A stretch of DNA of 64,000 nucleotides from Giardia intestinalis (lineage: Eukaryota). Both the position numbers and the translations under genes were made by a program. Positions 5,841-35,255 of the stretch are shown one piece after another (within the stretch, counting starts at the first letter, position 1; every line of letters starts with the position of its first letter). The stretch is from the NCBI GenBank assembly GCA_000002435.2, contig CM018789.1; one strand, written 5' to 3'. The notes under the pieces are model-generated. The model did not search any database, was not told the origin of the DNA, and worked only from the letters and a program-made list of their open reading frames with translations.

Positions 5841-6709
5841 CTACCGATTGTGTTTACATCTGTTTACAACTCTGCAGAGCCGACTGGGGGTTGCCGCATA
5901 TGCACCGTATGCTTCCCTGAGCATATATGTGTCGAACTCTGCCTCTGCTAGCTGGATGTTGAAGACACTCGTTGTCTTGTCGGTTGAGGTGCAACCATCT
6001 GCTCCCTTCTGCAGTTGACTGCACAGCTGGCACGTCCTTGCCACGTAGATGGCCTGGATGGTCTTCTCCGGCAGCGCTACTTGATAGATGAAGGGGTACT
6101 GCTCCAGCCTCCCGTTGTCTCCGTACCTAATTCTGCCGCGAACCGCCTCCTCGTCGACATGGAGCGCCAGCCTCCCGAAGTCCTCGAACGTCAGCTCTCG
6201 GATGCTGTGCCTTGGGTTGCAGAACGTGCTGCTGTCCGACAACAGCTTCACGGTTATCGCAGAGTATATCTCGGCCAGGCTGTGATACGACTTTACCCAG
6301 AGGTAGCCGAGGCTGCACACCGGCGCGAGGAGGGTGCTACACAGGAAAAGCGTCCCGGTGTCGTATCTGTGCATGATGTTTCCAAGGACCACCCCGTGGA
6401 GCATCATGTTGATGCACTCGTTGAGCGTCTGGAAGGAGAGAGAGGAGTCCTTCTGGCTCTTGTTCGCCATGAGTTCTCTGAAGTACCGCATCTTCTTGTC
6501 CTTGGCAGTCCTGTCGACGTAGAAGGACGCCTGGATGCAGGGCAGGTGGTGGTAGTAGCTGCATGTCACGAGGGCGAAGATGAACTCGCAGAGAAACAGC
6601 CTTACCCCTACAACATGATCCACTTTACCCCCTGATTGTTTCCAGTGTTGTGTTGTTAGGGCACGCCTATAGATGTGGTTCAAAGATTTTACAAATAGAC
6701 TTACTTCAT
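5841..6709 (-). CDS. hypothetical multi-pass membrane protein; candidate two-exon gene (exon 1 6705-6709 ATGAA; intron 6601-6704; exon 2 5841-6600)
   Basis: The minus-strand ORF (track 5841..6683, TTG start) has extreme GC3 bias (~85% G/C at codon position 3) from ~6600 down to the stop. This establishes the coding strand: the overlapping plus-strand ORF 6015..6635 has unbiased third positions. There is no in-frame ATG until 6491, although the GC3-biased, hydrophobic segment (KLFLCEFIFALVTCSYYHH...) begins at 6600. Upstream there is an AT-rich initiator plus ATGAA|GTAAGT...CCTAAC...GTAAG|GCTG. Splicing this way joins ATG in frame exactly where the GC3 bias starts, giving MKLFLCEFIFALVTC.... 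Confidence 0.4.
6601..6704 (-). other. candidate 104-nt spliceosomal intron (5' GTAAGT, internal CCTAACAACACAAC branch-like motif, 3' AG)
   Basis: Minus-strand sequence: GTAAGTCTATTTGTAAAATCTTTGAACCACATCTATAGGCGTGCCCTAACAACACAACACTGGAAACAATCAGGGGGTAAAGTGGATCATGTTGTAGGGGTAAG. Of the four AG dinucleotides downstream of the CTAAC motif, this is the only acceptor that keeps ATGAA in frame with the high-GC3 ORF. The canonical Giardia 3' motif ACTAACACACAG is only approximated, and it lies 54 nt from the proposed acceptor. Confidence 0.35.
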
Positions 6710-7009: not shown

Positions 7010-8230
7010 CTTGAGAAGAGCCACATCACACGAGGAAGGGCGCCGTTTACTCGAGGAGAGAGGCGATTGCGTCGTGGCCATGCCTCCTTGCGATGTCGAG
7101 GGCGGTGGTGCCGGGCGGGAAGCCGAGCCACTCACGGGTGGTCTGCATGCCTTTCTCCTTGTCCATCAGGAGCCTCGCACACTCCAGGTGACCACCCTGC
7201 GCTGCATGCATGAGCGCTGTCCATCCGTTGTTAGTCTTCATGCCGTCTTCTTTGTCTACTAGAAGCCTCACGCAGTCCGAGCAACCGTTGTCGGCTGCGT
7301 GCATGAGGGCAGTCCACCCACTGTTGGCCCTCATCCCGCCTTCCTTGTCCAGTAGAGCCTCCGCACACTCGCGGCGCCCATACTGTGCTGCATACATTAG
7401 GGCGGTCTTCCCATCATCCGTTTTCATGCCACCCTCCCTCTCCAGGAGGAGCTGCACGGACTCCAGTTTGCCGCGCCGTGCTGCGTACATAAGGGCGGTG
7501 GTGCCGTTGTTCCTCCGTTTGCCGCCTTCCCTCTTCAGCAGGAACTTCACGCATTCCGGGTGGCCCCCGTACGCCGCCCGCATGAGCGCGGTCTCTCCAA
7601 GCTTATTCTGTGTGCTACCTTTCATCTTCAGCAGAACCTTCACGGCTCTCAGGTTTCCATACTCTGCTGCTGACATGATGTCGGTCTCGACGAAGCCGTA
7701 TTTCAGCAACAAAAAAGACGAGAGACTCAGCCCGCTCCTCCCTTGTTGGTGGTAAAACTCTGCGGCTTCATCGATGCTCCTATCAGAAGCAGACCCCTCG
7801 GTGTCCTGAGGGCGACGACTCGCCTCCGAATCCCTGAGCACACCACTCGACATTTTTAACTTCGTCTGCTTGCAGGAAGACACTGCCACGGAAACACACA
7901 CTTTGCTCTCTGCTTCACTGAAAACGGTTTGTCAACTGCTGTCCGAGCATCTCCGTGAGAGCCGCCGCGCTGGGTGGGCCGCCCGCTCACCGTCCGGGGT
8001 CCAAGGTTCAGATCTTGAAGCTCGAACTCGTGCCCTCATACAAGGCCTCCTCCCCTGTGGGTAGGCGGGTCTCACGCTCGTTCACTTCTCCAATCCAGGA
8101 CTCAGAACTCGAAGCTTGAGCGTCGAATGTCATGATGATTTACTCCACCCACCGGTTGCTTCCAGTGGTGTGCTGCTGGGGCCTGCCTGCAGGTATGGTC
8201 CAGAGATCCCACGGGCAAGCTCTTGCTCAG
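7010..8230. repeat. left arm of perfect inverted repeat (palindrome); partner 11142..12352
   Basis: The reverse complement of 11142-12352 matches 7010-8230 base for base. The ORF-track proteins are identical: 7047..7901(-) = 11461..12315(+), 7210..7755(+) = 11607..12152(-), 7870..8064(+) = 11298..11492(-). The outer boundary is sharp, at cttgagaagag (7010) / ctcttctcaag (12352). Confidence 0.85.
7047..7853 (-). CDS. ankyrin-repeat protein (Protein 21.1 family), palindrome copy A
   Basis: ORF track 7047..7901 starts at GTG. The first ATG with an initiator (gaagttaaaaATG) is at 7853 (MSSGVLRDSEAS...). Five or six TALM-type ankyrin repeats (GETALMRAAYGGH, GTTALMYAARRG, GKTALMYAAQYG, GWTALMHAADNG, GWTALMHAAQGG). 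It is identical at the nucleotide level to copy B at 11509..12315. Confidence 0.7.
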   Translation of the reverse strand: MSSGVLRDSEASRRPQDTEGSASDRSIDEAAEFYHQQGRSGLSLSSFLLLKYGFVETDIMSAAEYGNLRAVKVLLKMKGSTQNKLGETALMRAAYGGHPECVKFLLKREGGKRRNNGTTALMYAARRGKLESVQLLLEREGGMKTDDGKTALMYAAQYGRRECAEALLDKEGGMRANSGWTALMHAADNGCSDCVRLLVDKEDGMKTNNGWTALMHAAQGGHLECARLLMDKEKGMQTTREWLGFPPGTTALDIARRHGHDAIASLLE

Positions 8231-8658: not shown

Positions 8659-9474
8659 TCAGCTTCGTCGGGTGCTCGTTCGCCTCTGCAGCCATGTGGG
8701 CGATGGCGAAGGCAGCCCGGACAGAGAGCTTCTCAACGTCCACGTGGAGCTCCTCGAGGTGCCCCTTGGACTGGGGTGGAGGGATCCGTCTGTCCCGTAG
8801 ATGATCGGGAGCGTCCCGTCCCTGTACTTCTTGACCTTCTCGTTGTAGTAGGCATCCATCTGGCGGAGCTGGATGACACCCACATCTATCGCCTTGCACT
8901 TGTCGACAAGCCAGATGTCGGGCTTCTGGTTCTGGTCGCTGAGGTGGCTGTGGGTCTCGACTTCCAGTTCCGGTTGAGCTTCCCCGAGACGCGGAGGCAC
9001 AGGCACGCGACGATCATGTCGTGCCTCGTGGTCGAGGGTCCACGCCGTGTGGCAGCCCGGGCAGGTGCCTCTTGTCTGCGCCATGATCGAGCCGCCCTTC
9101 TCCTTCAGGGCCCTTTCCTCCTCGGTCAGCACGCCGCCGCTCTGTCCGGAAGCTGGTGTGCGCGTGAGGAGGCGGTTGAAGTAGGCCCCTTCCCCTGCAG
9201 TGCCTGGCCGTTCACCGGCAGCTCCACCGGGTCTCTGGTCCCCTTGTTGACGTCCAGGGAGGCCCATACCCTCCGCAGCTCGTCGTGGTAGGATCCAGGC
9301 ATGAGCAGGCCCAGGCCGCCCTTCTCCTTCGGGTACGCCAGGAAGTCGACCAGGCGATCGCAGCTTCTGTTGGTTAGTGCTGAAGCCTTGTGCGACGCGT
9401 CTGTTGAGCTCCTCGTAGTCCGCCTTGTCCGATGTTACTTCGACCAGGGGGGCGTAGCTCACCATCGGGACCAC
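8659..9474 (-). pseudogene. CCHC zinc-finger / REL-endonuclease-like C-terminal fragment of retroelement ORF
   Basis: CPGCHTAWTLDHEARHD, then KPDIWLVDKCKAIDVG and LPIIYGTDGS. The position 3' of the RT fragments is as in R2/GilM-type elements. Confidence 0.4.
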
Positions 9475-11508: not shown

Positions 11509-12315
11509 ATGTCGAGTGGTGTGCTCAGGGATTCGGAGGCGAGTCGTCGCCCTCAGGACACCGAGGGGTCTGCTTCTGATAGGAGCATCGATGAAGCCGC
11601 AGAGTTTTACCACCAACAAGGGAGGAGCGGGCTGAGTCTCTCGTCTTTTTTGTTGCTGAAATACGGCTTCGTCGAGACCGACATCATGTCAGCAGCAGAG
11701 TATGGAAACCTGAGAGCCGTGAAGGTTCTGCTGAAGATGAAAGGTAGCACACAGAATAAGCTTGGAGAGACCGCGCTCATGCGGGCGGCGTACGGGGGCC
11801 ACCCGGAATGCGTGAAGTTCCTGCTGAAGAGGGAAGGCGGCAAACGGAGGAACAACGGCACCACCGCCCTTATGTACGCAGCACGGCGCGGCAAACTGGA
11901 GTCCGTGCAGCTCCTCCTGGAGAGGGAGGGTGGCATGAAAACGGATGATGGGAAGACCGCCCTAATGTATGCAGCACAGTATGGGCGCCGCGAGTGTGCG
12001 GAGGCTCTACTGGACAAGGAAGGCGGGATGAGGGCCAACAGTGGGTGGACTGCCCTCATGCACGCAGCCGACAACGGTTGCTCGGACTGCGTGAGGCTTC
12101 TAGTAGACAAAGAAGACGGCATGAAGACTAACAACGGATGGACAGCGCTCATGCATGCAGCGCAGGGTGGTCACCTGGAGTGTGCGAGGCTCCTGATGGA
12201 CAAGGAGAAAGGCATGCAGACCACCCGTGAGTGGCTCGGCTTCCCGCCCGGCACCACCGCCCTCGACATCGCAAGGAGGCATGGCCACGACGCAATCGCC
12301 TCTCTCCTCGAGTAA
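11509..12315 (+). CDS. ankyrin-repeat protein (Protein 21.1 family), palindrome copy B
   Basis: Identical to copy A. ATG at 11509 with gaagttaaaaATG. The stop TAA is embedded in the poly(A) signal AGTAAAC (12311-12317). Confidence 0.7.
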   Translation: MSSGVLRDSEASRRPQDTEGSASDRSIDEAAEFYHQQGRSGLSLSSFLLLKYGFVETDIMSAAEYGNLRAVKVLLKMKGSTQNKLGETALMRAAYGGHPECVKFLLKREGGKRRNNGTTALMYAARRGKLESVQLLLEREGGMKTDDGKTALMYAAQYGRRECAEALLDKEGGMRANSGWTALMHAADNGCSDCVRLLVDKEDGMKTNNGWTALMHAAQGGHLECARLLMDKEKGMQTTREWLGFPPGTTALDIARRHGHDAIASLLE

Positions 12316-12899: not shown

Positions 12900-14060
12900 T
12901 TATAAACGTCTACTAAGGCAAAGAGGCTCTGATAAGAGCGGGTATGCGTCACAGAAGCCAATGCTCTGTGCATACTCCAAACAACTCATCACTCCTTTGC
13001 CATTCCACCGAGAAGCAATGTTACGCTCATCAGGCCTATGTAGTGAAAAGTTCTGGTAGTGAGCTTCGTTGTATGCAGATAACAATGTGACACAAGCCAC
13101 AGATTTCATTAGCGTCGCATAACAGAGCGCGTTGTTATCAAAAACATCATGCTTGCTCAATTCCAACGTGCGAAACTGTTCAGGGCAGTATCGTATCAAG
13201 GCCCGTATGGAGTCCACTTGATCTTTGCAGCAAGCTATCATTATTGCCGTCTGTCCTAATCCGTTCGTTTTACCGAGAAAGCCAGGAGCCATTTCTATAA
13301 GTCTAGCAATGTCCTTAGTAACTGCAGCGCGCATCCAGCGATCGAGATCTAGTGCGTCAGATAGATTCTTGGCATGAGGATCATTTTCTAAATCTTGAGA
13401 AATACTCTCGAGGATGTCTAGTGCAAACAGGTGGTCGATAAAAACAGTTTTTGTACGATCTGTGTTTCGGACATGCCTTTCCAGAACAAAGAACATTCCT
13501 GATTCGTAAGTAGACAAGAACAAGGCCACATCAAAGTGCCGTGCCTCAACGGCAAGCATCAGAGCCGTCTTCCCAGATACCCAGCTCGACGGTTTAGTTC
13601 CGGAGCATTTTATGTGTGCTTCGGAATGCATTTGCAGGCATGCTTCATAAGGAGCAAGGCTTCTCACTAGCTCCAAGAACCCTCCTTGCGCTGCTAGCAT
13701 GAGCGCAGACATTCCATTAGAGTCCTGAAGGCCCAGAAGACATCTTCCGGCGGCTCCTTCTTCTGTCATTGCCCAATTTAGAAGTGTGCTGGCTAGCAAT
13801 TCCTTCTTGGCGCGTAGTAAATACATTAGTGCGCTAGTTCCTCGAGGAAACTCTTCGCCACCAAGGAGAGAATCATCGGTACGGACGGAAAGGTCGAAAG
13901 CGGAGACTCCTGCGAGCAAGTCAGCAGGGGTGGACACTTCTTTAAGATATAGAAAGAGATCGTTTTCACTGGCTAGTGCATCCAAGTGCCCGGTAGCTGG
14001 TAGAGCTTGCGCTGCTATTGCCATGTCCAAACATTCCAGAAAGTCTTCTTTGTCCTCCAT
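12900..14060 (-). CDS. ankyrin-repeat protein (Protein 21.1 family)
   Basis: TALM-type repeats (GMSALMLAAQGG, GKTALMLAVEARH, GQTAIMIACCKD). Two candidate ATGs, at 14075 and 14060. I prefer 14060 (MEDKEDFLE...) because it has a textbook initiator ttggattttaaaATGg. Confidence 0.6.
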   Translation of the reverse strand: MEDKEDFLECLDMAIAAQALPATGHLDALASENDLFLYLKEVSTPADLLAGVSAFDLSVRTDDSLLGGEEFPRGTSALMYLLRAKKELLASTLLNWAMTEEGAAGRCLLGLQDSNGMSALMLAAQGGFLELVRSLAPYEACLQMHSEAHIKCSGTKPSSWVSGKTALMLAVEARHFDVALFLSTYESGMFFVLERHVRNTDRTKTVFIDHLFALDILESISQDLENDPHAKNLSDALDLDRWMRAAVTKDIARLIEMAPGFLGKTNGLGQTAIMIACCKDQVDSIRALIRYCPEQFRTLELSKHDVFDNNALCYATLMKSVACVTLLSAYNEAHYQNFSLHRPDERNIASRWNGKGVMSCLEYAQSIGFCDAYPLLSEPLCLSRRL

Positions 14061-14073
14061 TTTAAAATCCAAC
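14061..14073. promoter_or_regulatory. 13-bp AT-rich spacer (tttaaaatccaac) between divergent start codons; shared/bidirectional initiator region
   Basis: The minus-strand gene ATG is at 14058-14060 and the plus-strand gene ATG at 14074-14076. An AT-rich element sits immediately upstream of both. Confidence 0.4.
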
Positions 14074-14583
14074 ATGCAGACACACTCAGTGGGATTTTCC
14101 TACCAGAATGACCCGTACAGCCTTTCCTCCCGCGCTCTAGCAACCAAAGCGGTAGCAACAATGGATGTTCCCGGTCAGCACCGAAAGCTCGCTGTCCCAG
14201 AACCCATAGATCTGGCGTCTGTAGACGAATGGGTAACTGTCTATGGGATTACTCCATCCAATCTTTCGCTGGCTCTTCACGCCCTTATGAACTTTGGGAC
14301 CATTATGAGGGTCAATTACGCCAATCACCATTTTATTCATGTCCGTTTCAGAGACGCCCTCTCCGCACAAGCCGCGGTTTCTGCGAGAGTAATCTGTCTC
14401 AGCAAGATCTCCATCATCGGCCTTATCCCCTGTCTTGTTAAGGACTTAGACAACGACATAACACTTTGTCACGAGCTTGACCTACCTCCTTATGTGTTGA
14501 CAAAAAAGACGCCCCCAGTGGTCAGTAATGGAATACTCGAGCGGATAATAAATTGGTTTGCGACGCTTCTTAAATCTGATTAA
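14074..14583 (+). CDS. Nup35/Nup53-type RRM (MPPN) domain mini-protein
   Basis: Only the 3' part of ORF 13786..14583 is credible; its 5' part is antisense to the 21.1 gene. WVTVYGITPSNLSLALHALMNFGTIMRVNYANHHFIHVRFRDALSAQAAVSARVICLSKISIIGLIPCLVKDLDND aligns with the human NUP35 RRM ([74 protein letters not shown]). Conserved positions include W-V-T-V-x-G, F..G.I, H(I/V)R(Y/F), A..A.S and IG(V/L)xPC. The start could alternatively be the ATG at 14161. Confidence 0.55.
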   Translation: MQTHSVGFSYQNDPYSLSSRALATKAVATMDVPGQHRKLAVPEPIDLASVDEWVTVYGITPSNLSLALHALMNFGTIMRVNYANHHFIHVRFRDALSAQAAVSARVICLSKISIIGLIPCLVKDLDNDITLCHELDLPPYVLTKKTPPVVSNGILERIINWFATLLKSD

Positions 14584-14748: not shown

Positions 14749-17700
14749 ATGCGTGCGAAGTCACTGTCACATCACAAACGGCCTGTTTCTGTGTTGAGCA
14801 CTCGAAGTGTGTCGCGCGCACCTCGCAGATTAGTGCGGGGCAGAGATCGCGATCCAAATCAAGATTACGTTCGATCCTTGGTGGCCAATCTCGAGTGCAA
14901 GAATCCTCTCGAGCTGACCACGGCGATTCGAGAGCTAACAGATATTTATGTGTCTAACAAGTATTCAGAGGTCTTTTTCTCCCGCGACGTGCCTACTAAA
15001 GTCTTTAAAGCAACCCTCCAAAACAGTCACAACGCTAAGATATTTGCTCTTGGGAAAACGTTTTTAAAATGCTTCATGGAGTCTTGCGCCTCGCAGTCTT
15101 CTTATATATTTGCGAACCTCAGTATTGATTCTAAAGAATATAGTAGAACCAAGTGTCTAGATTCTCTTCTCAATTACATTATTTCACAGCTCAGTGATAG
15201 TGAAATGTTATATAGTATTTATTTCTATGTGCTTGTGGGGGACATAATCTCAACACATCACGCTTGTGTGCCATTCGTGCACACACTATCACCAATTCAC
15301 TTCATTCAGGTGTATCTCAACAAGGTGTGTAACAACCTCGATATGTGCTCGCAGACAACCAACTCTCTCTCCATTGTGCAGTTGAATCAAATACATAGGG
15401 GCCGCGGCAATGCCAAGGACGGTGACACCAGCGATGGTAACGAATCGACCAACTCCGGGATGACAGTAGCCTCCAGTCTTTCTCTCGACGAGGATTGCAC
15501 TATGCCTACGGTTTGTAAGCAGTTGGATGATGCGCTATCGGAGATCTCGTCAGCACGGAGCATTCTCTCTAACTTTGCTGAGACGGTGTTTAGTAATTCT
15601 GTTCCAGGACAAAAAAGAAAACTGCGAAAAGAGACCGCCTCATATGGCAAGCTTCCTTTGATTAATACTGTTCGCTCGGAGGGTAGCAGTATGGTGTCCG
15701 ACCGCTCATCCATCGAAATTAACAACAGTCAGCACTTGGACTCTGATGATAACGAGGAAGAAAGTGGCTATTATTCTCAGTCTAACAATGGTGACTCTAA
15801 TACCAACTTAAATAGTGACAGATCAAGAGACTTTGGCGAGGATTTGTTCGACGAAAACGATAGGGAGGAGCGACAACCCACTCCACTTGACCACCAAGAA
15901 TCAGCAGTCTTTGTCTCACCACGTACCTGCAATCAAGAACCTAGTCTACACGGCACACAGGCATCCACTGAATTGGCTAAAGACTTACAAAAACAAAGTC
16001 ATGCAGGAGTGAAAGAGCCATCTCAAGATGTGAATATAAGAAATCACTCAAGGTCTTCTTGCAGCAGAAGCAGCGCGTCATTTTGTGAGAAGGATCGCTT
16101 GCTAGAGCTCCCAGCGCTAGGTGATTGCATTCCTGAGATCCCACAACCAGAGCATAAGGATGAGAGCGTCAGGGGACGACCACCTGTCACGAGAGGAGTC
16201 AAGGTCAGACTCCCCCCTATGGTGCATGACCAACGGAATACCTCGAAAGAAACTGGAGCTTACGACCCATTACTAAATGACGCGCTTACCCAGGAATCAT
16301 CTGCGTCTGCGATTCTAACGCCATTTAACTTGGGAACTATATCGGAGGCCAAAGTCTCGTCTGCCGAGCTACAGATGGTGCAAGGAGAAGAGGCTCAATC
16401 CGTCCTAGGCTCTGCAGTCCCCGTTCTTAACCTTCACTTGCCGTTAGCTGTCAATCCTGAACGAGATCCTGTTAATGAGAGCTCGTCTCCTGCACGGCAA
16501 GTGCTCACAACCGCGCGGCGACAGTCTAGGTATATGATTCACAGCACTCAAGCTGGTAAGGGGCGAACGAATGCTGTTGCCTATGGGCAAGCTTCACACA
16601 ACAGAGCCGTCGCTCCTGGGGTCAAGAATCGCTCCTCCTCAAACCTCCTCATCCCGCCTTCCACACCAAATGGAACTCTTTCTAACATCGGGGAGCCATT
16701 TTCTGGAGCAGCTCGTCAATTTTACCCGCAAAAGGACAAGTCTGCTGACTTTACACATGCGGAGCAAATTGAGAAGGTCGAAAGACGTGCAATCTGTGGC
16801 CCATTGGCTTTGGCATCTAAAACGAAACCTTGCAGGCCCTCTATCGTTCCGCTTCTATCACTGAGTTGTCCAGCTCAACAAGAGAAAGACCCTCCTGAAA
16901 TTACCACCCAATCAACACCAAAGCTTTCTCAACAAAAGTTTCCCGGTCTCAGTCTAGGATTATCCTTAGATTTGAAGTCTGTTCACAATCGGGAGAGTAC
17001 AGCACCTTCTATGAGTCATCGAGGACATCCAGGACGATTCGGTGACACAGATTCTCCTGCCACTGGTCAGTCCTACACCGGACTTAATCAGGAGACGGCC
17101 GATTTTGTGTTTGATAAGTATCTTCAGGTTCTTTCTGAACGGCGGAAGGGAATTCCGGAACTCGTGGATGTTGCTAACCGTATTGGCGAGTATACCTTTA
17201 TGCGGGACTATCCCCTGCTATGTTCTCTCAGTCGCGATAAAACCTATTCACACGGGTCCGCGAACTTAACAGCGCGTTCCACACACAGTAGCCTTTCAGT
17301 GTTGACTACATCTACTTCCCAAGCTGTTCAGGCGAATTACATCGTCAATCACCTCTATGTAACCCATAACTATTACACTTATTTAAAGGAACACAAAAGA
17401 CGATACCTTCTCTACAAGCTATTTGGTTCCACTCATACCAGGGATTTGTCTGACTATGAATTTAACTTCTCTATTATGTCAACCGAGCTTTTGCCCCTGG
17501 TGCGTCTTCAGAGAGTGGATCTATCTAGGGAGGATGTCATTCGCCTCGGTGTTAGCTATATTCTCTACCACTGCATCAGGAACCTTTCAAATATAACGCT
17601 GAGGTACTTCCCCAATATCCTGCCAAGCATATGCACAGACCTTATTTCACTGCATCAGCGTAAGACTGGCTTCATACCTGCAGTGGTTCTAGCGTTGTCA

Positions 17701-20700
17701 ACCCTCGTCAACCAAATACACAGCGCAAGCCAAACGCGCATAAGATCAGACTGGATGCGACTATTGTTTAAGATGTATAAGTATGCTAAGCTTACCTATG
17801 ACTACATAGATGTGGACACGGGGGAGTGTGTGCCTGAAAGTGAGCTGAATGTCTGCCACGGGGGCGTAGAAGTCACAACTGAAACTATGCAGGAAAACTT
17901 TCTAGTGGAGAACACTGTTTCCCCGGCAACAGGCCTGCCAAAGCGAAAGATTGGAAAGAGGCATGCAGTAACTCTTCCAGACGACATGTTCTTACTCCAA
18001 CGCCTCGAGGCTCAGCGGCGCATGTACTGCATAGATATGTATACTCTGTCTTTGCGGTTAAGTACTTTAGTATTGATGCCTTATTCCATCTCTGCTTGTG
18101 ATGATATCGCATGTTACTTGGCAGTCATTGCTGACCGGCTGGCCACTTCGCATGCAAACCCGATGGTGCGGGGGCTTGTGACAACGGCGCTTCTTCCATC
18201 GCTTCTAAAAGTCGTGGAACTCTTTCAGACAAGACGAATCAATTCTCGCCTTCACTATATTCTTATTGTCCAACGAATCCTTGAAGTTATGAGCCTGCTA
18301 GCGTCGGACTCTTTTGTTCGTGCCCCTAGCCTTGTGACATCCCCTGAGCCTCCGGTGGTTAGAGCATTGGTCAATAACAACGTCTGCTACACCACCGATC
18401 GATCAATGCAGAACATTGATAACATGCTGTGCGACGCGCTGGTGTTCAACGAGACTAATCTTAAGTGGCTAAGACGCTATAGCTGTCTGATTTTCCTAAA
18501 CACACGCATAAAGGATGAGCTCTCGGGAATGTATTACAGCAAGCCTCAGTGTCAGCACTCCTTTGAGGTCTACAAGATTAAGTTCTCCAAGTATATTATC
18601 ACCATGATTAGACTTCTCCGGTACCACTTCCTCAAGGTGGCTCAGCAGCTCTCCACAAACACAAAATTAGAGACCACAAAGATGTTCACTGCTGCAACTC
18701 ATAATAGCACCCACAGCTCTCACATCGCTTCGCGCCTGGTTGATAGTACGAGAAGGCAAAGCTTTAAGCTAGCAACGAGCTCGTTCCATGCTCCAATATA
18801 TATCACCAAATATGCCAATCTACCAGAGAATGACTATCCACGAGGATTGAAGGAGATTGCAGAGTACACTCAGGAGACACGGCTGAAGAATTTACCTATG
18901 ACTTCGCTGGCTACCTTGTGCACTCTAGAGAGCCATGCCAATATTTTCACAACGGCACGACTGGACCACATCCCCCTAACGCGCTGTGATGAAAGTCATC
19001 GTTTTAATGTGAAGGAGCTTCTCAGAAACAACGACTGCCACAGTATCATCGGCACATGGTCATTCTTATTTGACTTCGAAACAGGAGTTTTCCCACAGTA
19101 TCTTATGCTGGCCAAAAATGGCTCGGATGTTCAGGTTCAGACAGGTGGTGTCAACTTCTCCAAACACTTGGGGCTTTTTGACGATTCTGACCTTCTCAAG
19201 GCTATGCCAACCGCAGAGACGGTGGCAGAGGCCCGAACTCAGCACACGTCAGCAAAGGAGCTCCTGACAGAGCTTTCCAAAAATGCGCTCTCTGCACCTA
19301 CAAGCAGAAAGTCTGTCCTCTACGTCCTTTATACGCTCGCTGAGTTCTTCGCCATTGAAAACGTTGATCTTTATATAAAGCCTACAGACTTGCGAAAATT
19401 CATATCGTTTCATTACAAGTCGTTCTTGAAGCTGTACAACGACTGTGAGGTAGATCTGATTGAATGTATTTTAAGTACCAACAACAGCGTGAGTCTTCTC
19501 GACCTGTGCAATGGGCACCTCAATGTACTTTGCTCTCTCATTCAGATGGATTCTCCAAACACCCGGCAATATTTCTATGAACTTCGCATCATGCAATTTC
19601 TTATTCTGCAGCTGTCAGTCGACAATATTGATCAGAATAGTGGCTGGCAGAGAACAATTGCAGAAAGCGACGCTTCTACACTCCAGAAGATAAACCTTGC
19701 TAAGGCAGAGGCCGATAGAGAATGGGCTATAAAGGTGGCATCTGCACAAGCCCAAAAATTGCTACCTCCTATCTCTATGCCATATTTACGGTCTGATAAC
19801 CCCACAGCCACTCAAGATCAGGCCAAGAAACCTTCGGGAACCAGCCCCACCAAGACTAGTGTGTTCTTCAGCACACCGACACGTCCTTTGAAGCAAACTG
19901 CTCATAGTACCGGATCTCACATTCTAGCGAATAAGGATTATGAACTGGGTGATCTCAGAGCCAATGCTAACGCAGTATCTAGTATGATAGAGGAAGATGT
20001 GGAAGACAAGGTAGTAACTACCGTAAATGGGAGTCAGGAGTCCAAGAAGAGTGCTGCAACGTCACTTTCCACTAAGCCATCAGTGTCTGCAATCTTAACC
20101 CCTGGATTGGAAACCAAGCTGATCACAGACAACAGCTCCACAATGGACCTATTGGAAAAGTCAGAGATCACCGACTGCAACATCAGCGATCAGCTGCAAG
20201 CGACAGCAAAGCAAAAGCAACCAGTTGAGGTAATTAATGGAGATGCCATTCCATCTATAGACACTCTATTTGACTATCATGGATCTGCTGTCATACACCC
20301 CCTAAAGCTCCCCAGCACGGAATCTGAATTGATGGGCTCTCAGCAGTGTACTGACAGAAAAACACCATTAGAGGGCATCAAGCACAAGAGTAGTCTGGTG
20401 ATCACTGCAGTTCCAAAGCGCTCAACCCACATTTACGACGACGATGACAGCGATAGTTGTTGGGACGACGAGGCACAGAAACGCGGCATAGAGTTGCCAA
20501 AACGAGACTCTAAACAGCGGAGGGCTAACGAGCTGGAGCCACCTAAGGCTGATAAGCCCAGTGACGCCTACTCATCTCATGGAGACTCAAGTTTTAGTGA
20601 CTCTAGTGACCTACCACGAGCTCCTCCTGCCACTGTGCCCAAGACCTTCGGATTCACTCTCAAATTACCAGCCGTTAAGGTTTCAATCGATAAGCAGAAC

Positions 20701-23700
20701 GTAGTACTGGAAAAGGAGTCCAATTCTCAGAACATAGCTGGTGGCATTTCACAGTTTGAAGCCGCTGCCGATTCCCTAAACCCCAAATTCCATTTAGTTT
20801 TAGGGAATAGAATCGCAGCCAAACTAGAAACTGCACACTCTCTTCCACTAGCCACGGAAGGTTGCCAGGCTCCGGAGCCGGTTTTAGAAGTGGAGCAAAC
20901 AGATACTGAGGGTTTGAAACAGGGCAAGCAGAGGCAAAAGCAGCCAAAGGCAACCAAGTCAGTGCTTAAGAGGACCAAGTCCACCTTTTCTAGCAGTATC
21001 AGCCTGGCTGGCTTTACCTCTGAATTTGTTCGCGATACCGATGCGAAAAATAACAAGGAACAGCAGCGCTTTCTTACTCACAGCGCAACCGTGGCAAAGC
21101 TCAGTGCTCAAAATCGGCAGACGAGCACTGCCCAGGGTAGTCCAGACAAATGTCGCATCCAGCCGGTTTTACAGCATGGAGTACAGGATCCTCTCCTCGT
21201 TGCTCAAGAGTCGACGCTCTCCACGCTCTCCGGTTACAGAGACTTTGAGCATGGAAATCCATCAGAGCTGGAGGCCTCTGATCTTTTGGAGTACTCTCAG
21301 GCCAGCGCTTCAATAGAAAAGGCGCTTCACCGACCATTATATATCCACGAGGAGCTACACTATACTATTCTGCGAATTGTTTTGCTATTGATCATTGTCC
21401 CCGAGACTGGTACTCTCGATCCGATGTACTGTTCCCAGTTTCCAGCCAATGATGGCATGCCAAACATTCTATGGATCCTTCACCACCATCTTAATCATCC
21501 GAGAAACGAGAAATTCGCCCTTAGGTTAATATCTTCCGACATTTCACCTGCTGCTAAGCGTCTCTTACGCCTCACCTGCTATACTCTGTTTGACTCTACC
21601 TTGTATCCCATCAAGGACGCCACTAAGTTTTCACTCATGGCACAGGGTGCCTATGGATCTGTTTATTCTGGGAATGTATCGCTGGTTACAGAGGACAATC
21701 AGACCAACCAATCATTCCTGACTCCAGTAGCGGTCAAAATCCAGGACAGATCGAAGTCAATTTATGACCGGTGCGTCCTTCACGATATCTTTAACGAAAT
21801 AACTGTAATGGAACGGTTAGCCAATTATAGCGGAGTTAGTCGAATGTATGATTACGGAGTTACGAAGGATGGATACTACATCATCATGCACAAGTACGTT
21901 ACCAGTCTCAGGGATCTCCGTCTCAAACTCTTCGACGACCCAGCCACACTGCAATCCAACCAATTGCTGTATCATCCGGAGCCAAAGTATAAGCATCTGC
22001 CTATATACGGCCACGAACTGTCTTACATGAAGTACATCAGAATCTATCTTCTGATATTCATAAAATTCCTCCGACACCTTGAGTACCTACATACTGCTGG
22101 AGTCAATCACTATGATATAAAGGCCGACAACGTATTCTTTGATCCCAGAACAGTTCAGTGGTACTCTAAACTAGCTAGACTGGATGAAAATAGCAGGCCT
22201 GCCGGTACTGTTGACACTGGGACGCCTATTACAAAGATTTTCCTTGATAAGATCTTCACCGATTACCAGGCTGTACCATCGTACGAACTGCTTCCTTTTC
22301 GCATTGCAATAGCGGACTTTGGAGAGTCGATGGTCTTTTCAGATGAAGAGAGCTCCTACACACTCATCAATAAGGGGACAGAATATAATAAATCGCCAGA
22401 GATGCTGCTCTCGGCAAACATGGTAGCCCAAACCCGGTCTAACTTTGATCGGCGTCGTCCAAAGGGCGCTGGAAGCTCTTCAGACATCTGGTCTGCTGCA
22501 TGCTTCCTTTACGAGCTATTGACAGGTGACATCTTGTTCTTTGACTCTGACTGGATCCGCTTCTTTATCAGAGTCACGAAGGATAGCTATCAGAGCAACG
22601 TGCGAGCAAGGGCACGTGACAAGTCAGCTGCCCAATCATTTACATTTGATCATTCAGGCAAGTTTGCTCAGCTTTACAGGGGAGTTTCGCTTTCTCCAGA
22701 GAAGAAGGCCATGTTGGGGAACTGCCAGCCAATAATAGACCTTCTTGAGTTTTGCTTGGTACCAAACCCTACTCTGCGCCCCCAAATAAGAGACGTTATC
22801 GCCATGACCGAGCACATATTAAAGGTCTATTTTCCAGAAACCTACATGTATAAGCCCGAGTGTTACTATGTGGAGCCGGCGAAGGCGGAGCCATTCATCA
22901 GTAGCAGCTTTTGTTTCAGCATTATCGGAAGTGTTAATGACTGCCTGGTCAATCCTAGCGATGCCCTTGCACCAAAGCTTTCTATTGTCAAAAAGCAATG
23001 CGAACAATCCCCGAACTCTGTACAGAAGCAATTGGAGAGCCATGCTGCTATACCCAGCTACCTTCTTGCGACGGCTCAGCTCACTAGCCCTGTGTTGGGT
23101 CAACCCTGTGCCACGCTTCCTGTCAAAGTGATGCCTCCTGCCACTAATATTATAGATGGGTTTCTGTGGATAGGGTCTGTTTCCGTCTTGCGGCATGCAG
23201 AGCATCTTCTGGCATATAACGTTACGTCTGTGATTGATTGCCTAACGACCTCTCTAGAGCAGTCCATGGAGACCAAGCGAGTTATAGAAATGACCACTAT
23301 CCACTATTATAAGCTCCCCCTTGTTCTCACACAAATTATTAATCCCACGTCCAACAAGACGCTCTTTCTGGGTTCTCCTCGCGAAAGTACTCCGGGTTTA
23401 CCTAAGGCAGAGTTCCTGCGATACTCAGCCGCCCTGGACAGCGTGCTGGACTTCCTGCGCAGAACGGTCACCCATGGAGGCAGGTGCCTGCTTTACGACG
23501 AGAACGGTACCGGCCTCTCTGCTGCAGTGGCAATAGCCATGCTCGTGGAATTTAGATCTCTGTCTCTGTTTGCTGCTTACCTCCACGTCAGGAACCTCAG
23601 GCCTCACATTGCACCTCCCCTTCCGTTCTTAGATTTCCTGCACTACTGGTTCTTATTCAGAGTTCGACCAGGAATTAAGAACAAAGACTTTCTCTATGCG

Positions 23701-24291
23701 AACTCTTCGTACTTCAGACAAATTCTTTTCAAGCCTACACCGACATTTGAGCAACTTATTAATCTAAGGATCAGTAAGGCGCGATATCAGTGTCTTTGTG
23801 GCAAGATCTTCTTTATAGTCAAGCCAGACGTGAAGCGGATGCCGACATTTGTGCTTTGCAACTGTGCATATACACCGCAGCTTTCCAAGGACTCCCCAGG
23901 AACACCTGGAAAGGCCCTGAGCCAACCAGCCTGTCCTACTCTATCGTGCCGATCCATAATCAATCTATTCATGTCTATTTACGGATTGCGTCTCGGACGA
24001 ATCCTTTGGGCCTTTCTTCCTGCTCGAGACGTTGTCTCTAATTGGAAGACAGACACGATGGGAATAAGGAACATTCCCTCAACACCCCACGCCATCGAGA
24101 GAGCCTCAGCAGACATGTATAACAAGTTTACGGGCCTCGACAATATGCGCGCTCCAATCAATCGCATACCCCGACAGAGAAATTGGGAGCTCTATTACTG
24201 CAAGATTTGCGGGCTGGTGACCCATGCTGCTGATGCTTCCTCTCCAGATGCAGTACAGCTGGCTATTCTGGCAAACTTTTCCCCGAAGTGA
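14749..24291 (+). CDS. giant (3181 aa) protein with C-terminal Ser/Thr protein-kinase domain followed by a catalytically inactive dual-specificity-phosphatase-like domain
   Basis: The ORF-track start at 14731 is TTG; the ATG is at 14749 with gagattaaaaaactaATG. Kinase motifs in order: AQGAYGSVY (Gly loop), VAVKIQ (beta3 Lys), HYDIKADN (catalytic loop), ADFGES (DFG), NKSPEMLL (APE-like), SDIWSAACFLYELLTG. About 200 aa later a DUSP fold: IDGFLWIGSVSV...AYNVTSVIDCL...CLLYDENGTGLSAAVAIAMLV aligns to the VLVHCQAGVSRSAT signature with Cys->Asp and Arg->Leu. Confidence 0.75.
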   Translation: MRAKSLSHHKRPVSVLSTRSVSRAPRRLVRGRDRDPNQDYVRSLVANLECKNPLELTTAIRELTDIYVSNKYSEVFFSRDVPTKVFKATLQNSHNAKIFALGKTFLKCFMESCASQSSYIFANLSIDSKEYSRTKCLDSLLNYIISQLSDSEMLYSIYFYVLVGDIISTHHACVPFVHTLSPIHFIQVYLNKVCNNLDMCSQTTNSLSIVQLNQIHRGRGNAKDGDTSDGNESTNSGMTVASSLSLDEDCTMPTVCKQLDDALSEISSARSILSNFAETVFSNSVPGQKRKLRKETASYGKLPLINTVRSEGSSMVSDRSSIEINNSQHLDSDDNEEESGYYSQSNNGDSNTNLNSDRSRDFGEDLFDENDREERQPTPLDHQESAVFVSPRTCNQEPSLHGTQASTELAKDLQKQSHAGVKEPSQDVNIRNHSRSSCSRSSASFCEKDRLLELPALGDCIPEIPQPEHKDESVRGRPPVTRGVKVRLPPMVHDQRNTSKETGAYDPLLNDALTQESSASAILTPFNLGTISEAKVSSAELQMVQGEEAQSVLGSAVPVLNLHLPLAVNPERDPVNESSSPARQVLTTARRQSRYMIHSTQAGKGRTNAVAYGQASHNRAVAPGVKNRSSSNLLIPPSTPNGTLSNIGEPFSGAARQFYPQKDKSADFTHAEQIEKVERRAICGPLALASKTKPCRPSIVPLLSLSCPAQQEKDPPEITTQSTPKLSQQKFPGLSLGLSLDLKSVHNRESTAPSMSHRGHPGRFGDTDSPATGQSYTGLNQETADFVFDKYLQVLSERRKGIPELVDVANRIGEYTFMRDYPLLCSLSRDKTYSHGSANLTARSTHSSLSVLTTSTSQAVQANYIVNHLYVTHNYYTYLKEHKRRYLLYKLFGSTHTRDLSDYEFNFSIMSTELLPLVRLQRVDLSREDVIRLGVSYILYHCIRNLSNITLRYFPNILPSICTDLISLHQRKTGFIPAVVLALSTLVNQIHSASQTRIRSDWMRLLFKMYKYAKLTYDYIDVDTGECVPESELNVCHGGVEVTTETMQENFLVENTVSPATGLPKRKIGKRHAVTLPDDMFLLQRLEAQRRMYCIDMYTLSLRLSTLVLMPYSISACDDIACYLAVIADRLATSHANPMVRGLVTTALLPSLLKVVELFQTRRINSRLHYILIVQRILEVMSLLASDSFVRAPSLVTSPEPPVVRALVNNNVCYTTDRSMQNIDNMLCDALVFNETNLKWLRRYSCLIFLNTRIKDELSGMYYSKPQCQHSFEVYKIKFSKYIITMIRLLRYHFLKVAQQLSTNTKLETTKMFTAATHNSTHSSHIASRLVDSTRRQSFKLATSSFHAPIYITKYANLPENDYPRGLKEIAEYTQETRLKNLPMTSLATLCTLESHANIFTTARLDHIPLTRCDESHRFNVKELLRNNDCHSIIGTWSFLFDFETGVFPQYLMLAKNGSDVQVQTGGVNFSKHLGLFDDSDLLKAMPTAETVAEARTQHTSAKELLTELSKNALSAPTSRKSVLYVLYTLAEFFAIENVDLYIKPTDLRKFISFHYKSFLKLYNDCEVDLIECILSTNNSVSLLDLCNGHLNVLCSLIQMDSPNTRQYFYELRIMQFLILQLSVDNIDQNSGWQRTIAESDASTLQKINLAKAEADREWAIKVASAQAQKLLPPISMPYLRSDNPTATQDQAKKPSGTSPTKTSVFFSTPTRPLKQTAHSTGSHILANKDYELGDLRANANAVSSMIEEDVEDKVVTTVNGSQESKKSAATSLSTKPSVSAILTPGLETKLITDNSSTMDLLEKSEITDCNISDQLQATAKQKQPVEVINGDAIPSIDTLFDYHGSAVIHPLKLPSTESELMGSQQCTDRKTPLEGIKHKSSLVITAVPKRSTHIYDDDDSDSCWDDEAQKRGIELPKRDSKQRRANELEPPKADKPSDAYSSHGDSSFSDSSDLPRAPPATVPKTFGFTLKLPAVKVSIDKQNVVLEKESNSQNIAGGISQFEAAADSLNPKFHLVLGNRIAAKLETAHSLPLATEGCQAPEPVLEVEQTDTEGLKQGKQRQKQPKATKSVLKRTKSTFSSSISLAGFTSEFVRDTDAKNNKEQQRFLTHSATVAKLSAQNRQTSTAQGSPDKCRIQPVLQHGVQDPLLVAQESTLSTLSGYRDFEHGNPSELEASDLLEYSQASASIEKALHRPLYIHEELHYTILRIVLLLIIVPETGTLDPMYCSQFPANDGMPNILWILHHHLNHPRNEKFALRLISSDISPAAKRLLRLTCYTLFDSTLYPIKDATKFSLMAQGAYGSVYSGNVSLVTEDNQTNQSFLTPVAVKIQDRSKSIYDRCVLHDIFNEITVMERLANYSGVSRMYDYGVTKDGYYIIMHKYVTSLRDLRLKLFDDPATLQSNQLLYHPEPKYKHLPIYGHELSYMKYIRIYLLIFIKFLRHLEYLHTAGVNHYDIKADNVFFDPRTVQWYSKLARLDENSRPAGTVDTGTPITKIFLDKIFTDYQAVPSYELLPFRIAIADFGESMVFSDEESSYTLINKGTEYNKSPEMLLSANMVAQTRSNFDRRRPKGAGSSSDIWSAACFLYELLTGDILFFDSDWIRFFIRVTKDSYQSNVRARARDKSAAQSFTFDHSGKFAQLYRGVSLSPEKKAMLGNCQPIIDLLEFCLVPNPTLRPQIRDVIAMTEHILKVYFPETYMYKPECYYVEPAKAEPFISSSFCFSIIGSVNDCLVNPSDALAPKLSIVKKQCEQSPNSVQKQLESHAAIPSYLLATAQLTSPVLGQPCATLPVKVMPPATNIIDGFLWIGSVSVLRHAEHLLAYNVTSVIDCLTTSLEQSMETKRVIEMTTIHYYKLPLVLTQIINPTSNKTLFLGSPRESTPGLPKAEFLRYSAALDSVLDFLRRTVTHGGRCLLYDENGTGLSAAVAIAMLVEFRSLSLFAAYLHVRNLRPHIAPPLPFLDFLHYWFLFRVRPGIKNKDFLYANSSYFRQILFKPTPTFEQLINLRISKARYQCLCGKIFFIVKPDVKRMPTFVLCNCAYTPQLSKDSPGTPGKALSQPACPTLSCRSIINLFMSIYGLRLGRILWAFLPARDVVSNWKTDTMGIRNIPSTPHAIERASADMYNKFTGLDNMRAPINRIPRQRNWELYYCKICGLVTHAADASSPDAVQLAILANFSPK

Positions 24292-35228: not shown

Positions 35229-35255
35229 TAAGCTTTACAGTAGTTGAATAATTAT

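What the first reader, a model, noticed from the sequence alone, without database searches (positions are those of the whole stretch)
14074..14583. Stand-alone Nup35/Nup53-type RRM (MPPN) domain protein in a parasite with a poorly defined nuclear pore complex
A ~75-residue stretch aligns position by position with the atypical RRM of vertebrate NUP35 (WVTV-G, F..G.I, H-I/V-R-Y/F, A..A.S, IG-x-x-PC-x-x-K). The predicted protein (141-170 aa) is little more than this dimerisation domain. It lacks the N-terminal region and the C-terminal amphipathic membrane-binding helix of canonical Nup53. It is transcribed divergently from a 21.1 ankyrin gene, with only 13 bp between the two ATGs.
Basis: partly seen in the sequence, partly recalled or inferred. 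Interest (0 to 1): 0.6.

Follow-up and report, generated by a model that had tools for sequence, protein, structure and literature searches.

The report
Giardia's minimal Nup35/Nup53 nucleoporin homologue

Summary
The ORF at 14074-14583 (+) is real. It encodes a 169-aa protein whose residues 51-124 are a Nup35/Nup53-type atypical RRM.
- Pfam PF05172 gives 41.3 bits against a cut-off of 24.
- hhalign against a canonical Nup35 profile gives 99.3% probability.
- The AF2 core matches human NUP35 (4LIR) at 1.4 Å.

The 13-bp divergent arrangement with an ankyrin gene is also real, and it is conserved in other Giardia assemblages.

1. The protein is not a stand-alone RRM. Its last 17 residues (GILERIINWFATLLKSD) form the strongest amphipathic helix in the protein. 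[quoted passage not shown] Between G. intestinalis and G. muris they are as conserved as the RRM.
2. It is not new. The protein is GL50803_3598, listed as the Giardia Nup35 candidate by Neumann et al. 2010. NCBI and UniRef already name it by this domain.

What remains is a very compact Nup35: a short N-terminus without the canonical N-terminal motifs seen in this alignment, the RRM, a short linker and the tail helix. I found no experimental localisation. Verdict: already known, modest interest.

The parts
14074..14583 (+). CDS of the Giardia Nup35/Nup53 homologue (169 aa plus TAA stop), identical to GL50803_3598 / XP_001706400.1 / ESU36926.1 apart from the 17-residue N-terminal extension of the annotated model
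   Evidence: Searches show the ORF. Searches show 100% identity to P0001 and give its names. One search finds the same C-terminus in the Nup35 alignment of Neumann et al. 2010.
14074..14223 (+). N-terminal 50 residues, predicted disordered. They carry a short motif (M1, G7, Y10 invariant; H-x-x-G-x-x-Y-x-x-D) conserved among the diplomonad-type orthologues. The canonical Nup35 N-terminal motifs are not seen.
   Evidence: AF2 pLDDT is 44-52. Alignment A4 gives the invariant columns. In alignment A3 the FLPGFLMG-like and PPxxSLxD-like blocks of canonical Nup35 have no Giardia counterpart.
14224..14445 (+). Nup35-type atypical RRM (MPPN) domain, residues 51-124, beta-alpha-beta-beta-alpha-beta-beta; the putative homodimerisation module
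   Evidence: Pfam PF05172, 41.3 bits, E 1.5e-10. PDB phmmer E about 4e-6. hhalign 99.3%. AF2 pLDDT 83-90. Foldseek 4lir_A TM 0.82, rmsd 1.4 Å.
14446..14529 (+). Linker, residues 125-152, predicted disordered. It is 82-100% identical among G. intestinalis assemblages (ITLCHEL.LPPY.L..KTPPVV) but poorly conserved to G. muris. It ends in P148, which is invariant in all 18 aligned Nup35 proteins. It is a candidate site for a scaffold-nucleoporin contact (inference).
14530..14580 (+). C-terminal amphipathic helix GILERIINWFATLLKSD (residues 153-169; helix 155-166 in the model), counterpart of the membrane-binding C-terminal motif of Nup53/Nup35
   Evidence: It has the highest hydrophobic moment in the protein, muH 0.69; only 0.24% of 14-mers and 1 of 93 ORF tails in the window reach that value. 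A PSSM built from 36 non-Giardia Nup35 tails scores it best in the protein, and 0 of 328 ORF tails reach its score. It aligns in register in ClustalX, MAFFT and hhalign, P 4.8e-4. AF2 predicts a helix. It is 50% identical to G. muris, against 21% for the linker.
14061..14073 (.). 13-bp intergenic spacer TTTTAAAATCCAA C between the divergent ATGs. It is part of the invariant AT-rich element CATTTTAAAATC, the likely shared bidirectional initiator (inference from known Giardia promoter architecture).
   Evidence: columns 69-80 invariant in 4 assemblies. Searches show 13-16 bp spacing in L001-L005.
12900..14060 (-). Divergently transcribed ankyrin-repeat gene (386 aa from the conserved ATG at 14060). 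The upstream ATG at 14075 is not conserved in L004. It is a neighbour, not functionally linked by any evidence here.
   Evidence: Pfam Ank_2 E 1e-18. Synteny. Alignment. The family name '21.1' was not tested.
14023..14073 (+). 17-codon N-terminal extension used by the public 186-aa gene model. It lies inside the ankyrin CDS on the opposite strand and is probably not translated.
   Evidence: P0001 and P0002 are 186 aa, while P0003 and P0004 are 167 aa. G. muris and the other orthologues begin within a few residues of M1. The AT-rich element lies downstream of 14023. This is not decisive: the ATG at 14023 is itself conserved.

Best explanation
This is the single-copy Giardia orthologue of the inner-ring nucleoporin Nup35/Nup53, reduced to its core. 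That core is a short disordered N-terminus, the atypical RRM, a 28-residue linker and a C-terminal amphipathic helix.

Proposed mechanism:
1. The RRM forms a homodimer through its beta-sheet face. The vertebrate Phe/Trp pocket plus inserted Met is replaced here by Tyr57/Phe87 plus Ile114.
2. The dimer presents two C-terminal amphipathic helices to the pore membrane. Their hydrophobic face (I154, L155, I158, I159, W161, F162, L165, L166) inserts into one leaflet. This gives avidity-dependent anchoring and possibly curvature.
3. The short flanking segments tether a scaffold nucleoporin, most plausibly the Nup155/Nup170 candidate.

Shown here: family membership of the RRM, its fold, the presence, conservation and amphipathicity of the tail helix, and the compact architecture in related diplomonad-type proteins.

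Inferred: dimerisation, membrane binding, partners and nuclear-pore localisation. These come from work on vertebrate and yeast Nup53 (PMC3474928, PMC8700311).

Retention of the tail helix fits Giardia's mitosis, which from my own knowledge leaves the envelope largely intact. In Xenopus, the C-terminal site is the one required for pore insertion into an intact envelope (PMC3474928).
For: **RRM**
- Pfam PF05172 scores above its gathering cut-off.
- Only NUP35/Nup53 chains are hit in PDB by sequence.
- A profile of the Giardia family recovers canonical Nup35 proteins among 1.84 billion representatives.
- hhalign gives 99.3%, E 2e-20.
- The AF2 core has pLDDT 83-90, and the nine best PDB matches are all Nup35/Nup53 RRMs.

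**Tail helix**
- A published alignment, MAFFT and hhalign on tails alone (P 4.8e-4) all place it in the same register.
- The upstream Pro148 is invariant in all 18 aligned sequences.
- The PSSM test is; the hydrophobic-moment tests are.
- Identity to G. muris is 50% in the helix, 49% in the RRM, 31% in the N-terminus and 21% in the linker.

**Dimer residues.** Replacements are conservative: Y57, F87, I114.

**Orthology**
- Only orthologues, and no paralogue, turned up in either protein search.
- Synteny is conserved.
- G. muris and two unnamed compact-genome organisms have proteins with the same architecture, 172-190 aa.

**Prior identification.** Neumann et al. 2010.
Against: - There is no experimental localisation, interaction or membrane-binding evidence for this protein in the searchable literature.
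- The terminal F-G-W of the canonical motif is replaced by A-T-L-L(KSD). That includes the last Trp, which is needed in Xenopus for interphase assembly.
- AF2 confidence for the helix is only about 60-64, and hhalign probability on the tails alone is 32%.
- The canonical N-terminal motifs seen in other Nup35 proteins are not detectable.
- A Nup35-type RRM does not by itself guarantee pore membership. T. brucei LAP73 has one and is not regarded as a nucleoporin orthologue.
- Homodimerisation could not be modelled with the tools available.
Confidence: 0.8

Rival explanations
1. It is a Nup35-type RRM protein that is not an inner-ring nucleoporin. It would be a nuclear-envelope or lamina-associated factor, or another membrane-associated factor that shares only the domain, as proposed for T. 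brucei LAP73.
For: LAP73 shows that the domain occurs outside bona fide Nup53 orthologues. The Giardia protein lacks the recognisable N-terminal motifs of canonical Nup35. No localisation data were found.
Against: LAP73 was set apart partly because it lacks an obvious membrane anchor. The Giardia protein keeps the family's C-terminal motif in register, with the invariant proline. It is the only Nup35-type RRM protein recovered for Giardia, so it is also the only candidate for the orthologue.
Confidence: 0.13
2. It is an ordinary RNA-binding RRM protein whose resemblance to Nup35 is superficial.
For: The fold is a general RRM fold, and many RNA-binding RRMs appear lower in the structural hit list.
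Against: Pfam RRM_1 gives no hit up to E = 10, whereas RRM_Nup35 passes its cut-off. The nine best structural and all sequence hits are Nup35/Nup53. The beta1 and beta3 strands read WVTVYGI and HHFIHVRF rather than the RNP2/RNP1 consensus (direct reading). hhalign gives 99.3% against the Nup35 profile.
Confidence: 0.04
3. The ORF is not expressed, or is a chance ORF in the shadow of neighbouring genes.
For: Long antisense ORFs are common in this window. The upstream part of the 265-aa ORF (13786-14073) overlaps the ankyrin gene.
Against: The ORF from 14074 lies in its own intergenic space. It is conserved at 80-93% protein identity across assemblages and at 39% to G. muris, with a domain-shaped conservation pattern. 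It also has a significant family match.
Confidence: 0.01

Closest known systems
Vertebrate NUP35 / Xenopus Nup53 (PDB 4LIR, 1WWH; PMC3474928)
   Same: Both have the atypical RRM: 30% identity, rmsd 1.4 Å, with the motifs WVTV(F/Y)G, H(I/V)R(Y/F), A..A.S and IG..PC..K. Both have a proline-preceded C-terminal amphipathic helix at the extreme C-terminus. The dimer-pocket positions are aromatic and hydrophobic in both.
   Different: The Giardia protein is 169 aa against about 320-326 aa. Its N-terminal region is 50 residues instead of about 170, and it lacks the FLPGFLMG-like and PPxxSLxD-like blocks. The linker between RRM and helix is 28 residues instead of about 65. The terminal F-G-W is replaced by A-T-L-L-K-S-D. 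The pocket is F/W/M in vertebrates and Y/F/I here.
S. cerevisiae Nup53 / Nup59
   Same: The C-terminal motifs are very similar: SWLNRLNNWLFGWNDL against GILERIINWFATLLKSD, sharing L, R, N and W in register, and both carry a short extension after the hydrophobic block. Both have the RRM. According to the Entamoeba preprint, ScNup53 also lacks recognisable R1-R3 motifs.
   Different: The yeast proteins are much longer and are duplicated. Giardia appears to have a single copy.
Giardia muris TNJ27575.1 (Nup53/35/40-type RRM-containing protein, 172 aa)
   Same: It has the same compact architecture: an N-terminal HxxGxxYxxD motif, the RRM and the tail TIFERVVNWLSSLL. It is the direct orthologue.
   Different: Overall identity is 39%. 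Position 87 is Leu rather than Phe, and there is a three-residue insertion in the beta2-beta3 loop.
Trypanosoma brucei TbNup65 and LAP73 (PMC11018031)
   Same: Both are divergent-protist proteins with a Nup35/53-type RRM at the nuclear envelope.
   Different: TbNup65 anchors through a transmembrane domain rather than an amphipathic helix. LAP73 has no obvious anchor and is not considered a Nup53 orthologue. Giardia keeps the ancestral amphipathic helix.
Entamoeba histolytica EhNup53-like EHI_026310 (bioRxiv 10.64898/2026.09.13.750810)
   Same: It is a reduced or divergent Nup53 in an anaerobic parasite. Its RRM is retained and is needed for its peripheral nuclear localisation.
   Different: The Entamoeba protein is undetectable by profile searches. 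[quoted passage not shown] The Giardia protein is readily detected, keeps aromatic pocket residues and keeps the tail helix.

Membership tests
Nup35/Nup53/Nup40 nucleoporin family (Pfam PF05172, RRM_Nup35 / MPPN) | Sequence match to the Nup35-type atypical RRM above the curated threshold | tested here: met
   Pfam gives 41.3 bits against a cut-off of 24, E 1.5e-10. PDB phmmer gives E 3.7e-6 to 1e-5, to NUP35/Nup53 chains only. hhalign gives 99.3%.
Nup35/Nup53/Nup40 nucleoporin family | RRM fold closest to solved Nup35/Nup53 RRM structures | tested here: met
   The AF2 core has pLDDT 83-90. The nine best Foldseek hits in PDB are all Nup35/Nup53; 4lir_A has TM 0.82 and rmsd 1.4 Å.
Nup35/Nup53/Nup40 nucleoporin family | Degenerate RNP1/RNP2 motifs (an atypical RRM, not a canonical RNA binder) | tested here: met
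   By direct reading, beta1 is WVTVYGI and beta3 is HHFIHVRF. Pfam RRM_1 gives no hit up to E = 10.
Nup35/Nup53/Nup40 nucleoporin family | Homodimer interface: aromatic pocket (Xenopus F172/W203) that receives a Met from the partner | tested here: inconclusive
   The aligned positions are Y57, F87 and I114. These replacements are conservative. The dimer itself could not be modelled or measured.
Nup35/Nup53/Nup40 nucleoporin family | C-terminal amphipathic helix at the extreme C-terminus (membrane-binding motif) | tested here: met
   The motif is in register in three alignments. AF2 predicts a helix at 155-166. It is conserved to G. muris. The terminal FGW is not conserved, and actual membrane binding was not tested.
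Nup35/Nup53/Nup40 nucleoporin family | N-terminal linear motifs of the kind that bind Nup93/Nic96 and Nup205/Nup192 in opisthokonts (R1/R2) | tested here: not met
   Giardia has no counterpart of the FLPGFLMG-like or PPxxSLxD-like blocks in alignment A3, and its N-terminus is only 50 residues. This is not a universal family feature: ScNup53 is reported to lack recognisable R1-R3.
Nup35/Nup53/Nup40 nucleoporin family | Binding of Nup155/Nup170 (and Ndc1) next to the C-terminal helix | not testable with these tools
   A Giardia Nup155 candidate (GL50803_112408) is listed by Neumann et al. 2010, and their NDC1 table has no Giardia entry. The linker 125-152 is conserved among assemblages, but no interaction test was possible.
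Nup35/Nup53/Nup40 nucleoporin family | Localisation to nuclear pore complexes | not testable with these tools
   No localisation study was found in the held literature.

The most novel reading that the evidence does not exclude
The diplomonad protein may be the natural minimal Nup53: a dimerising RRM plus one amphipathic helix that is sufficient, with almost no linker motifs, to couple the pore membrane to a reduced inner ring. In Neumann et al. 2010, as I read their tab-delimited Table 2, Giardia has no candidate for Nup93, Nup205/188 or Ndc1. If that reading holds, the conserved diplomonad-specific N-terminal motif (HxxGxxYxxD) and the linker would bind lineage-specific partners. The protein would then be a small bait for defining the still uncharacterised Giardia pore.
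Probability: 0.3. Interest if true: 0.5.

Novelty: already known. Interest (0 to 1): 0.22.

Why it matters
The Giardia nuclear pore has not been characterised biochemically in the literature I could search, and few of its components are recognisable by sequence. This 169-aa protein is one of the few clear inner-ring markers.

The useful correction here is that it is not a bare domain. It keeps the family's membrane-binding tail, so a C-terminal tag would probably disable it, and tagging should be N-terminal. Its small size makes it a convenient bait for proximity labelling.

As a discovery it adds little. The gene was assigned to Nup35 in 2010, and the databases already name it by the domain.

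Tried and rejected
- **Literature search for the gene.** I searched for GL50803_3598, 'Giardia + Nup53/Nup35' and 'Giardia + nucleoporin + localization/GFP'. Only comparative-genomics mentions turned up, and no experiments.
- **The 141-aa alternative start (M30).** Rejected, because M30 is T or G in other assemblages.
- **The annotated 186-aa start at 14023.** Judged unlikely but not excluded. The ATG is conserved, but it lies inside the ankyrin CDS, so its conservation says nothing. The G. muris and other orthologue N-termini and the position of the AT-rich element favour 14074.
- **Ankyrin start at 14075, overlapping the Nup35 ATG.** Rejected, because that ATG is absent in L004.
- **hhalign on full-length profiles.** It aligned only the RRM, so the tails were compared separately. 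That gave only 32% probability, although P was 4.8e-4.
- **N-terminal basic membrane site.** I looked for a counterpart of Xenopus R105/K106. Giardia has H36-R37-K38, but this is not conserved in P0004 (QNMK), so it was left as speculation.
- **Identity of P0008 and P0034.** The organisms could not be established; the samples are unnamed Logan assemblies.

Full report
**What is in the sequence**

On the + strand an ATG at 14074 opens a 169-codon reading frame that ends with TAA at 14581-14583. The mechanical ORF list extends this frame upstream to 13786. That extension runs antisense through the neighbouring gene.

On the - strand an ankyrin-repeat gene (Pfam Ank_2, E 1e-18) begins at the ATG at 14060.

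The window is Giardia. The protein is 100% identical over all 169 residues to P0001, which is XP_001706400.1 'Hypothetical protein GL50803_3598 [Giardia lamblia ATCC 50803]' and ESU36926.1 'Putative NUP-type RNA recognition protein [Giardia duodenalis]'.

**Is the Nup35 resemblance real?**

Yes.
- Residues 51-124 hit Pfam RRM_Nup35 (PF05172) at 41.3 bits, above the curated cut-off of 24, with E 1.5e-10. The ordinary RRM family does not appear even at E = 10.
- Against all PDB sequences, the only matches are NUP35/Nup53 RRM chains (4lir, 7tbj, 1wwh, 8ozb, 7r5j, 9hcj).
- A profile of four Giardia orthologues, searched against 1.84 billion representative proteins, found G. muris (E 6e-30), two unnamed short relatives and then canonical Nup35 proteins of 220-410 aa.
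- A profile-profile comparison of the diplomonad-type set against twelve canonical Nup35 proteins gives 99.3% probability, E 2e-20, over 80 columns.
- An AlphaFold2 model from an 18-sequence alignment gives a beta-alpha-beta-beta-alpha-beta-beta core at pLDDT 83-90.
- The nine best Foldseek matches in PDB are all Nup35/Nup53 RRMs. Human NUP35 (4lir_A) has TM 0.82, rmsd 1.4 Å and 30% identity.

**The C-terminal helix is present**

The evidence says otherwise.

The last 17 residues are GILERIINWFATLLKSD.
- At window lengths of 11, 14 and 18 residues, this segment has the highest helical hydrophobic moment in the protein. The value is muH 0.69 for ILERIINWFATLLK on the Eisenberg scale.
- Only 0.24% of all 14-mers, and 1 of 93 ORF tails, in the six-frame translation of this window reach that value.
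- On a helical wheel, I154, L155, I158, I159, W161, F162, L165 and L166 fill one face. G153, E156, R157, N160, A163, T164 and K167 fill the other.
- I built a position-specific matrix from the C-terminal motifs of 36 non-Giardia Nup35 proteins. It scores GILERIINWFATL as the best 13-mer in the protein, at 9.4 bits. That score is reached by 5 of 41,181 six-frame 13-mers, 0 of 328 ORF tails and 23 of 200,000 random peptides.
- Three independent alignments put the segment in the same register against the canonical motif (human SLVSKAMEYMFGW, yeast SWLNRLNNWLFGWNDL). They are the published ClustalX alignment of Neumann et al., my MAFFT alignment of 18 proteins, and hhalign on the isolated tails (P 4.8e-4, though only 32% probability for so short a profile).
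- In the MAFFT alignment, the proline five residues upstream of the segment (P148) is invariant in all 18 sequences.
- AlphaFold2 predicts a helix at 155-166, at modest confidence (pLDDT about 60-64).
- Between G. intestinalis and G. muris the helix is 50% identical and the RRM 49%. The N-terminus is 31% and the linker 21%. Selection therefore acts on the tail as strongly as on the domain.

The real difference from the canonical motif is at the very end. F-G-W is replaced by A-T-L-L, followed by K-S-D or R.

**What is reduced**

The region before the RRM is 50 residues, against roughly 170 in animals, and it is predicted disordered. In the 18-sequence alignment, two blocks shared by canonical Nup35 proteins have no Giardia counterpart. 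One is FLPGFLMG-like. The other is PPxxSLxD-like and sits just before the RRM.

The diplomonad-type proteins instead share a short N-terminal motif, with M1, G7 and Y10 invariant. The linker between RRM and helix is 28 residues.

The same compact plan (172-190 aa) is found in G. muris and in two unnamed organisms from Logan assemblies.

**Dimer interface**

The Xenopus mutations F172E/W203E make the RRM monomeric and abolish function (PMC3474928). The contact has been described as a Met inserting into a Phe/Trp pocket.

An offset of 7 between Xenopus and human numbering places both mutated residues on an F and a W of the human sequence aligned. With that offset, the Giardia equivalents are Y57, F87 and I114. 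These replacements are conservative and are kept as aromatic or aliphatic residues in the relatives. In Entamoeba, by contrast, the pocket residues are Ser and Gly. Dimerisation is therefore plausible but untested.

**Gene model and context**

- The order ankyrin gene (-), this gene (+), giant kinase gene (+) is conserved in five contigs from other Giardia assemblages, with 13-16 bp between the divergent starts.
- The element CATTTTAAAATC between the starts is invariant. From established knowledge of Giardia promoters (short AT-rich initiators next to the ATG, very short 5' UTRs, frequent bidirectionality), this is the likely shared initiator.
- The public 186-aa model starts at an ATG at 14023, inside the ankyrin CDS. 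That ATG is conserved, but its conservation is uninformative because of the overlap.
- Gene calls in other assemblages (167 aa) and the N-termini of G. muris and the other relatives favour 14074.
- The 141-aa option (M30) is not conserved.

**Most likely function**

By homology, this is the Giardia inner-ring nucleoporin Nup35/Nup53. The RRM would dimerise, the two tail helices would insert into the pore membrane with avidity, and the short flanks would tether a scaffold nucleoporin.

In vertebrates and yeast the Nup155/Nup170 site lies next to the tail helix (PMC8700311). Neumann et al. list a Giardia Nup155 candidate, GL50803_112408.

In Xenopus, the C-terminal site is the one strictly needed for inserting pores into an intact envelope. 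That fits an organism whose envelope stays largely intact in mitosis (my own knowledge, not tested here).

The family, fold, tail helix and conservation are shown. Dimerisation, membrane binding, partners and localisation are inferred.

**Rivals**

- A non-pore Nup35-RRM protein, like T. brucei LAP73, cannot be excluded without localisation. It is disfavoured by the retained family-specific tail and by the absence of any other Giardia candidate.
- A generic RNA-binding RRM is effectively excluded.
- A chance ORF is effectively excluded.

**Novelty**

The assignment is not new.
- Neumann, Lundin and Poole 2010 (PMC2951903) list GL50803_3598 (gi:159112342) as the Giardia Nup35 candidate in their Table S1.
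- Their alignment file contains this very C-terminus, aligned to the canonical motif.
- Their Table 3 credits Nup35 in excavates to two earlier screens as well.
- NCBI, UniRef and the G. muris annotation all name the protein by the domain.

I found no experimental study of the Giardia protein.

The finding is therefore a correct recognition of a known gene, with one wrong anatomical claim. Residual interest lies in the protein's use as a small, well-defined handle on an uncharacterised pore.

Noticed in passing
window 14023-14073 (+): The public 186-aa gene models (WB GL50803_3598, P15 GLP15_127) start 17 codons upstream, inside the divergent ankyrin CDS. The orthologue N-termini and the position of the AT-rich element suggest the true start is 14074.
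   Followed up: partly
window 14749-24291 (+): A giant ORF of about 3180 aa lies immediately downstream and is syntenic in other assemblages. Its protein kinase domain is stretched over 365 residues (aa 2321-2685), so it carries large inserts. Near the C-terminus there is a sub-threshold dual-specificity phosphatase match (DSPc, 25.6 against 33.5 bits). Where the HCxxGxxR signature is expected, it reads LLYDENGTGLSAA, so it looks like a pseudophosphatase module.
   Followed up: partly
L006:96-641 (P0008), P0034, P0007: Unnamed Logan assemblies (SRR31929897 and others) encode 181-190-aa Nup35-type proteins with the same compact plan and a C-terminal amphipathic tail (TLLDKLMRGLKTLAAPR; GLLGRVAGAVSGLLRRLV). 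They are probably other diplomonads or fornicates, but the organisms were not identified.
   Followed up: partly
window 14074-14120 (+), residues 1-16: A short N-terminal motif (M1, G7, Y10 invariant; HxxGxxYxxD) is conserved from G. intestinalis to G. muris and the unnamed relatives. It has no counterpart in canonical Nup35. It may be a lineage-specific linear binding motif.
   Followed up: partly
window 11607-12152 (-), 7210-7755 (+), 8776-9291 (+), 6015-6635 (+): Long ORFs of 170-206 aa run antisense inside the ankyrin-repeat genes. They look like non-coding shadow ORFs of the repeat codon pattern rather than genes.
   Followed up: no
window 42618-48482 (-): A 1953-aa ORF has ADA2-type ZZ and TADA2A-like domains confined to its first ~400 residues. 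The remaining ~1500 residues are unassigned, which is unusually large for an ADA2-like adaptor.
   Followed up: no
window 29472-30704 (+); 33405-35228 (+); 37787-39826 (-); 48907-50838 (-): The other recognisable genes are a 5MP/BZW-like protein (HEAT_5MP1_2 plus W2), a CLP1/Grc3-type P-loop protein, a kinase with C-terminal ankyrin repeats, and an amino-acid permease. Several ORFs of 480-840 aa have no Pfam match (27540-29336, 31269-32717, 35244-37754).
   Followed up: no
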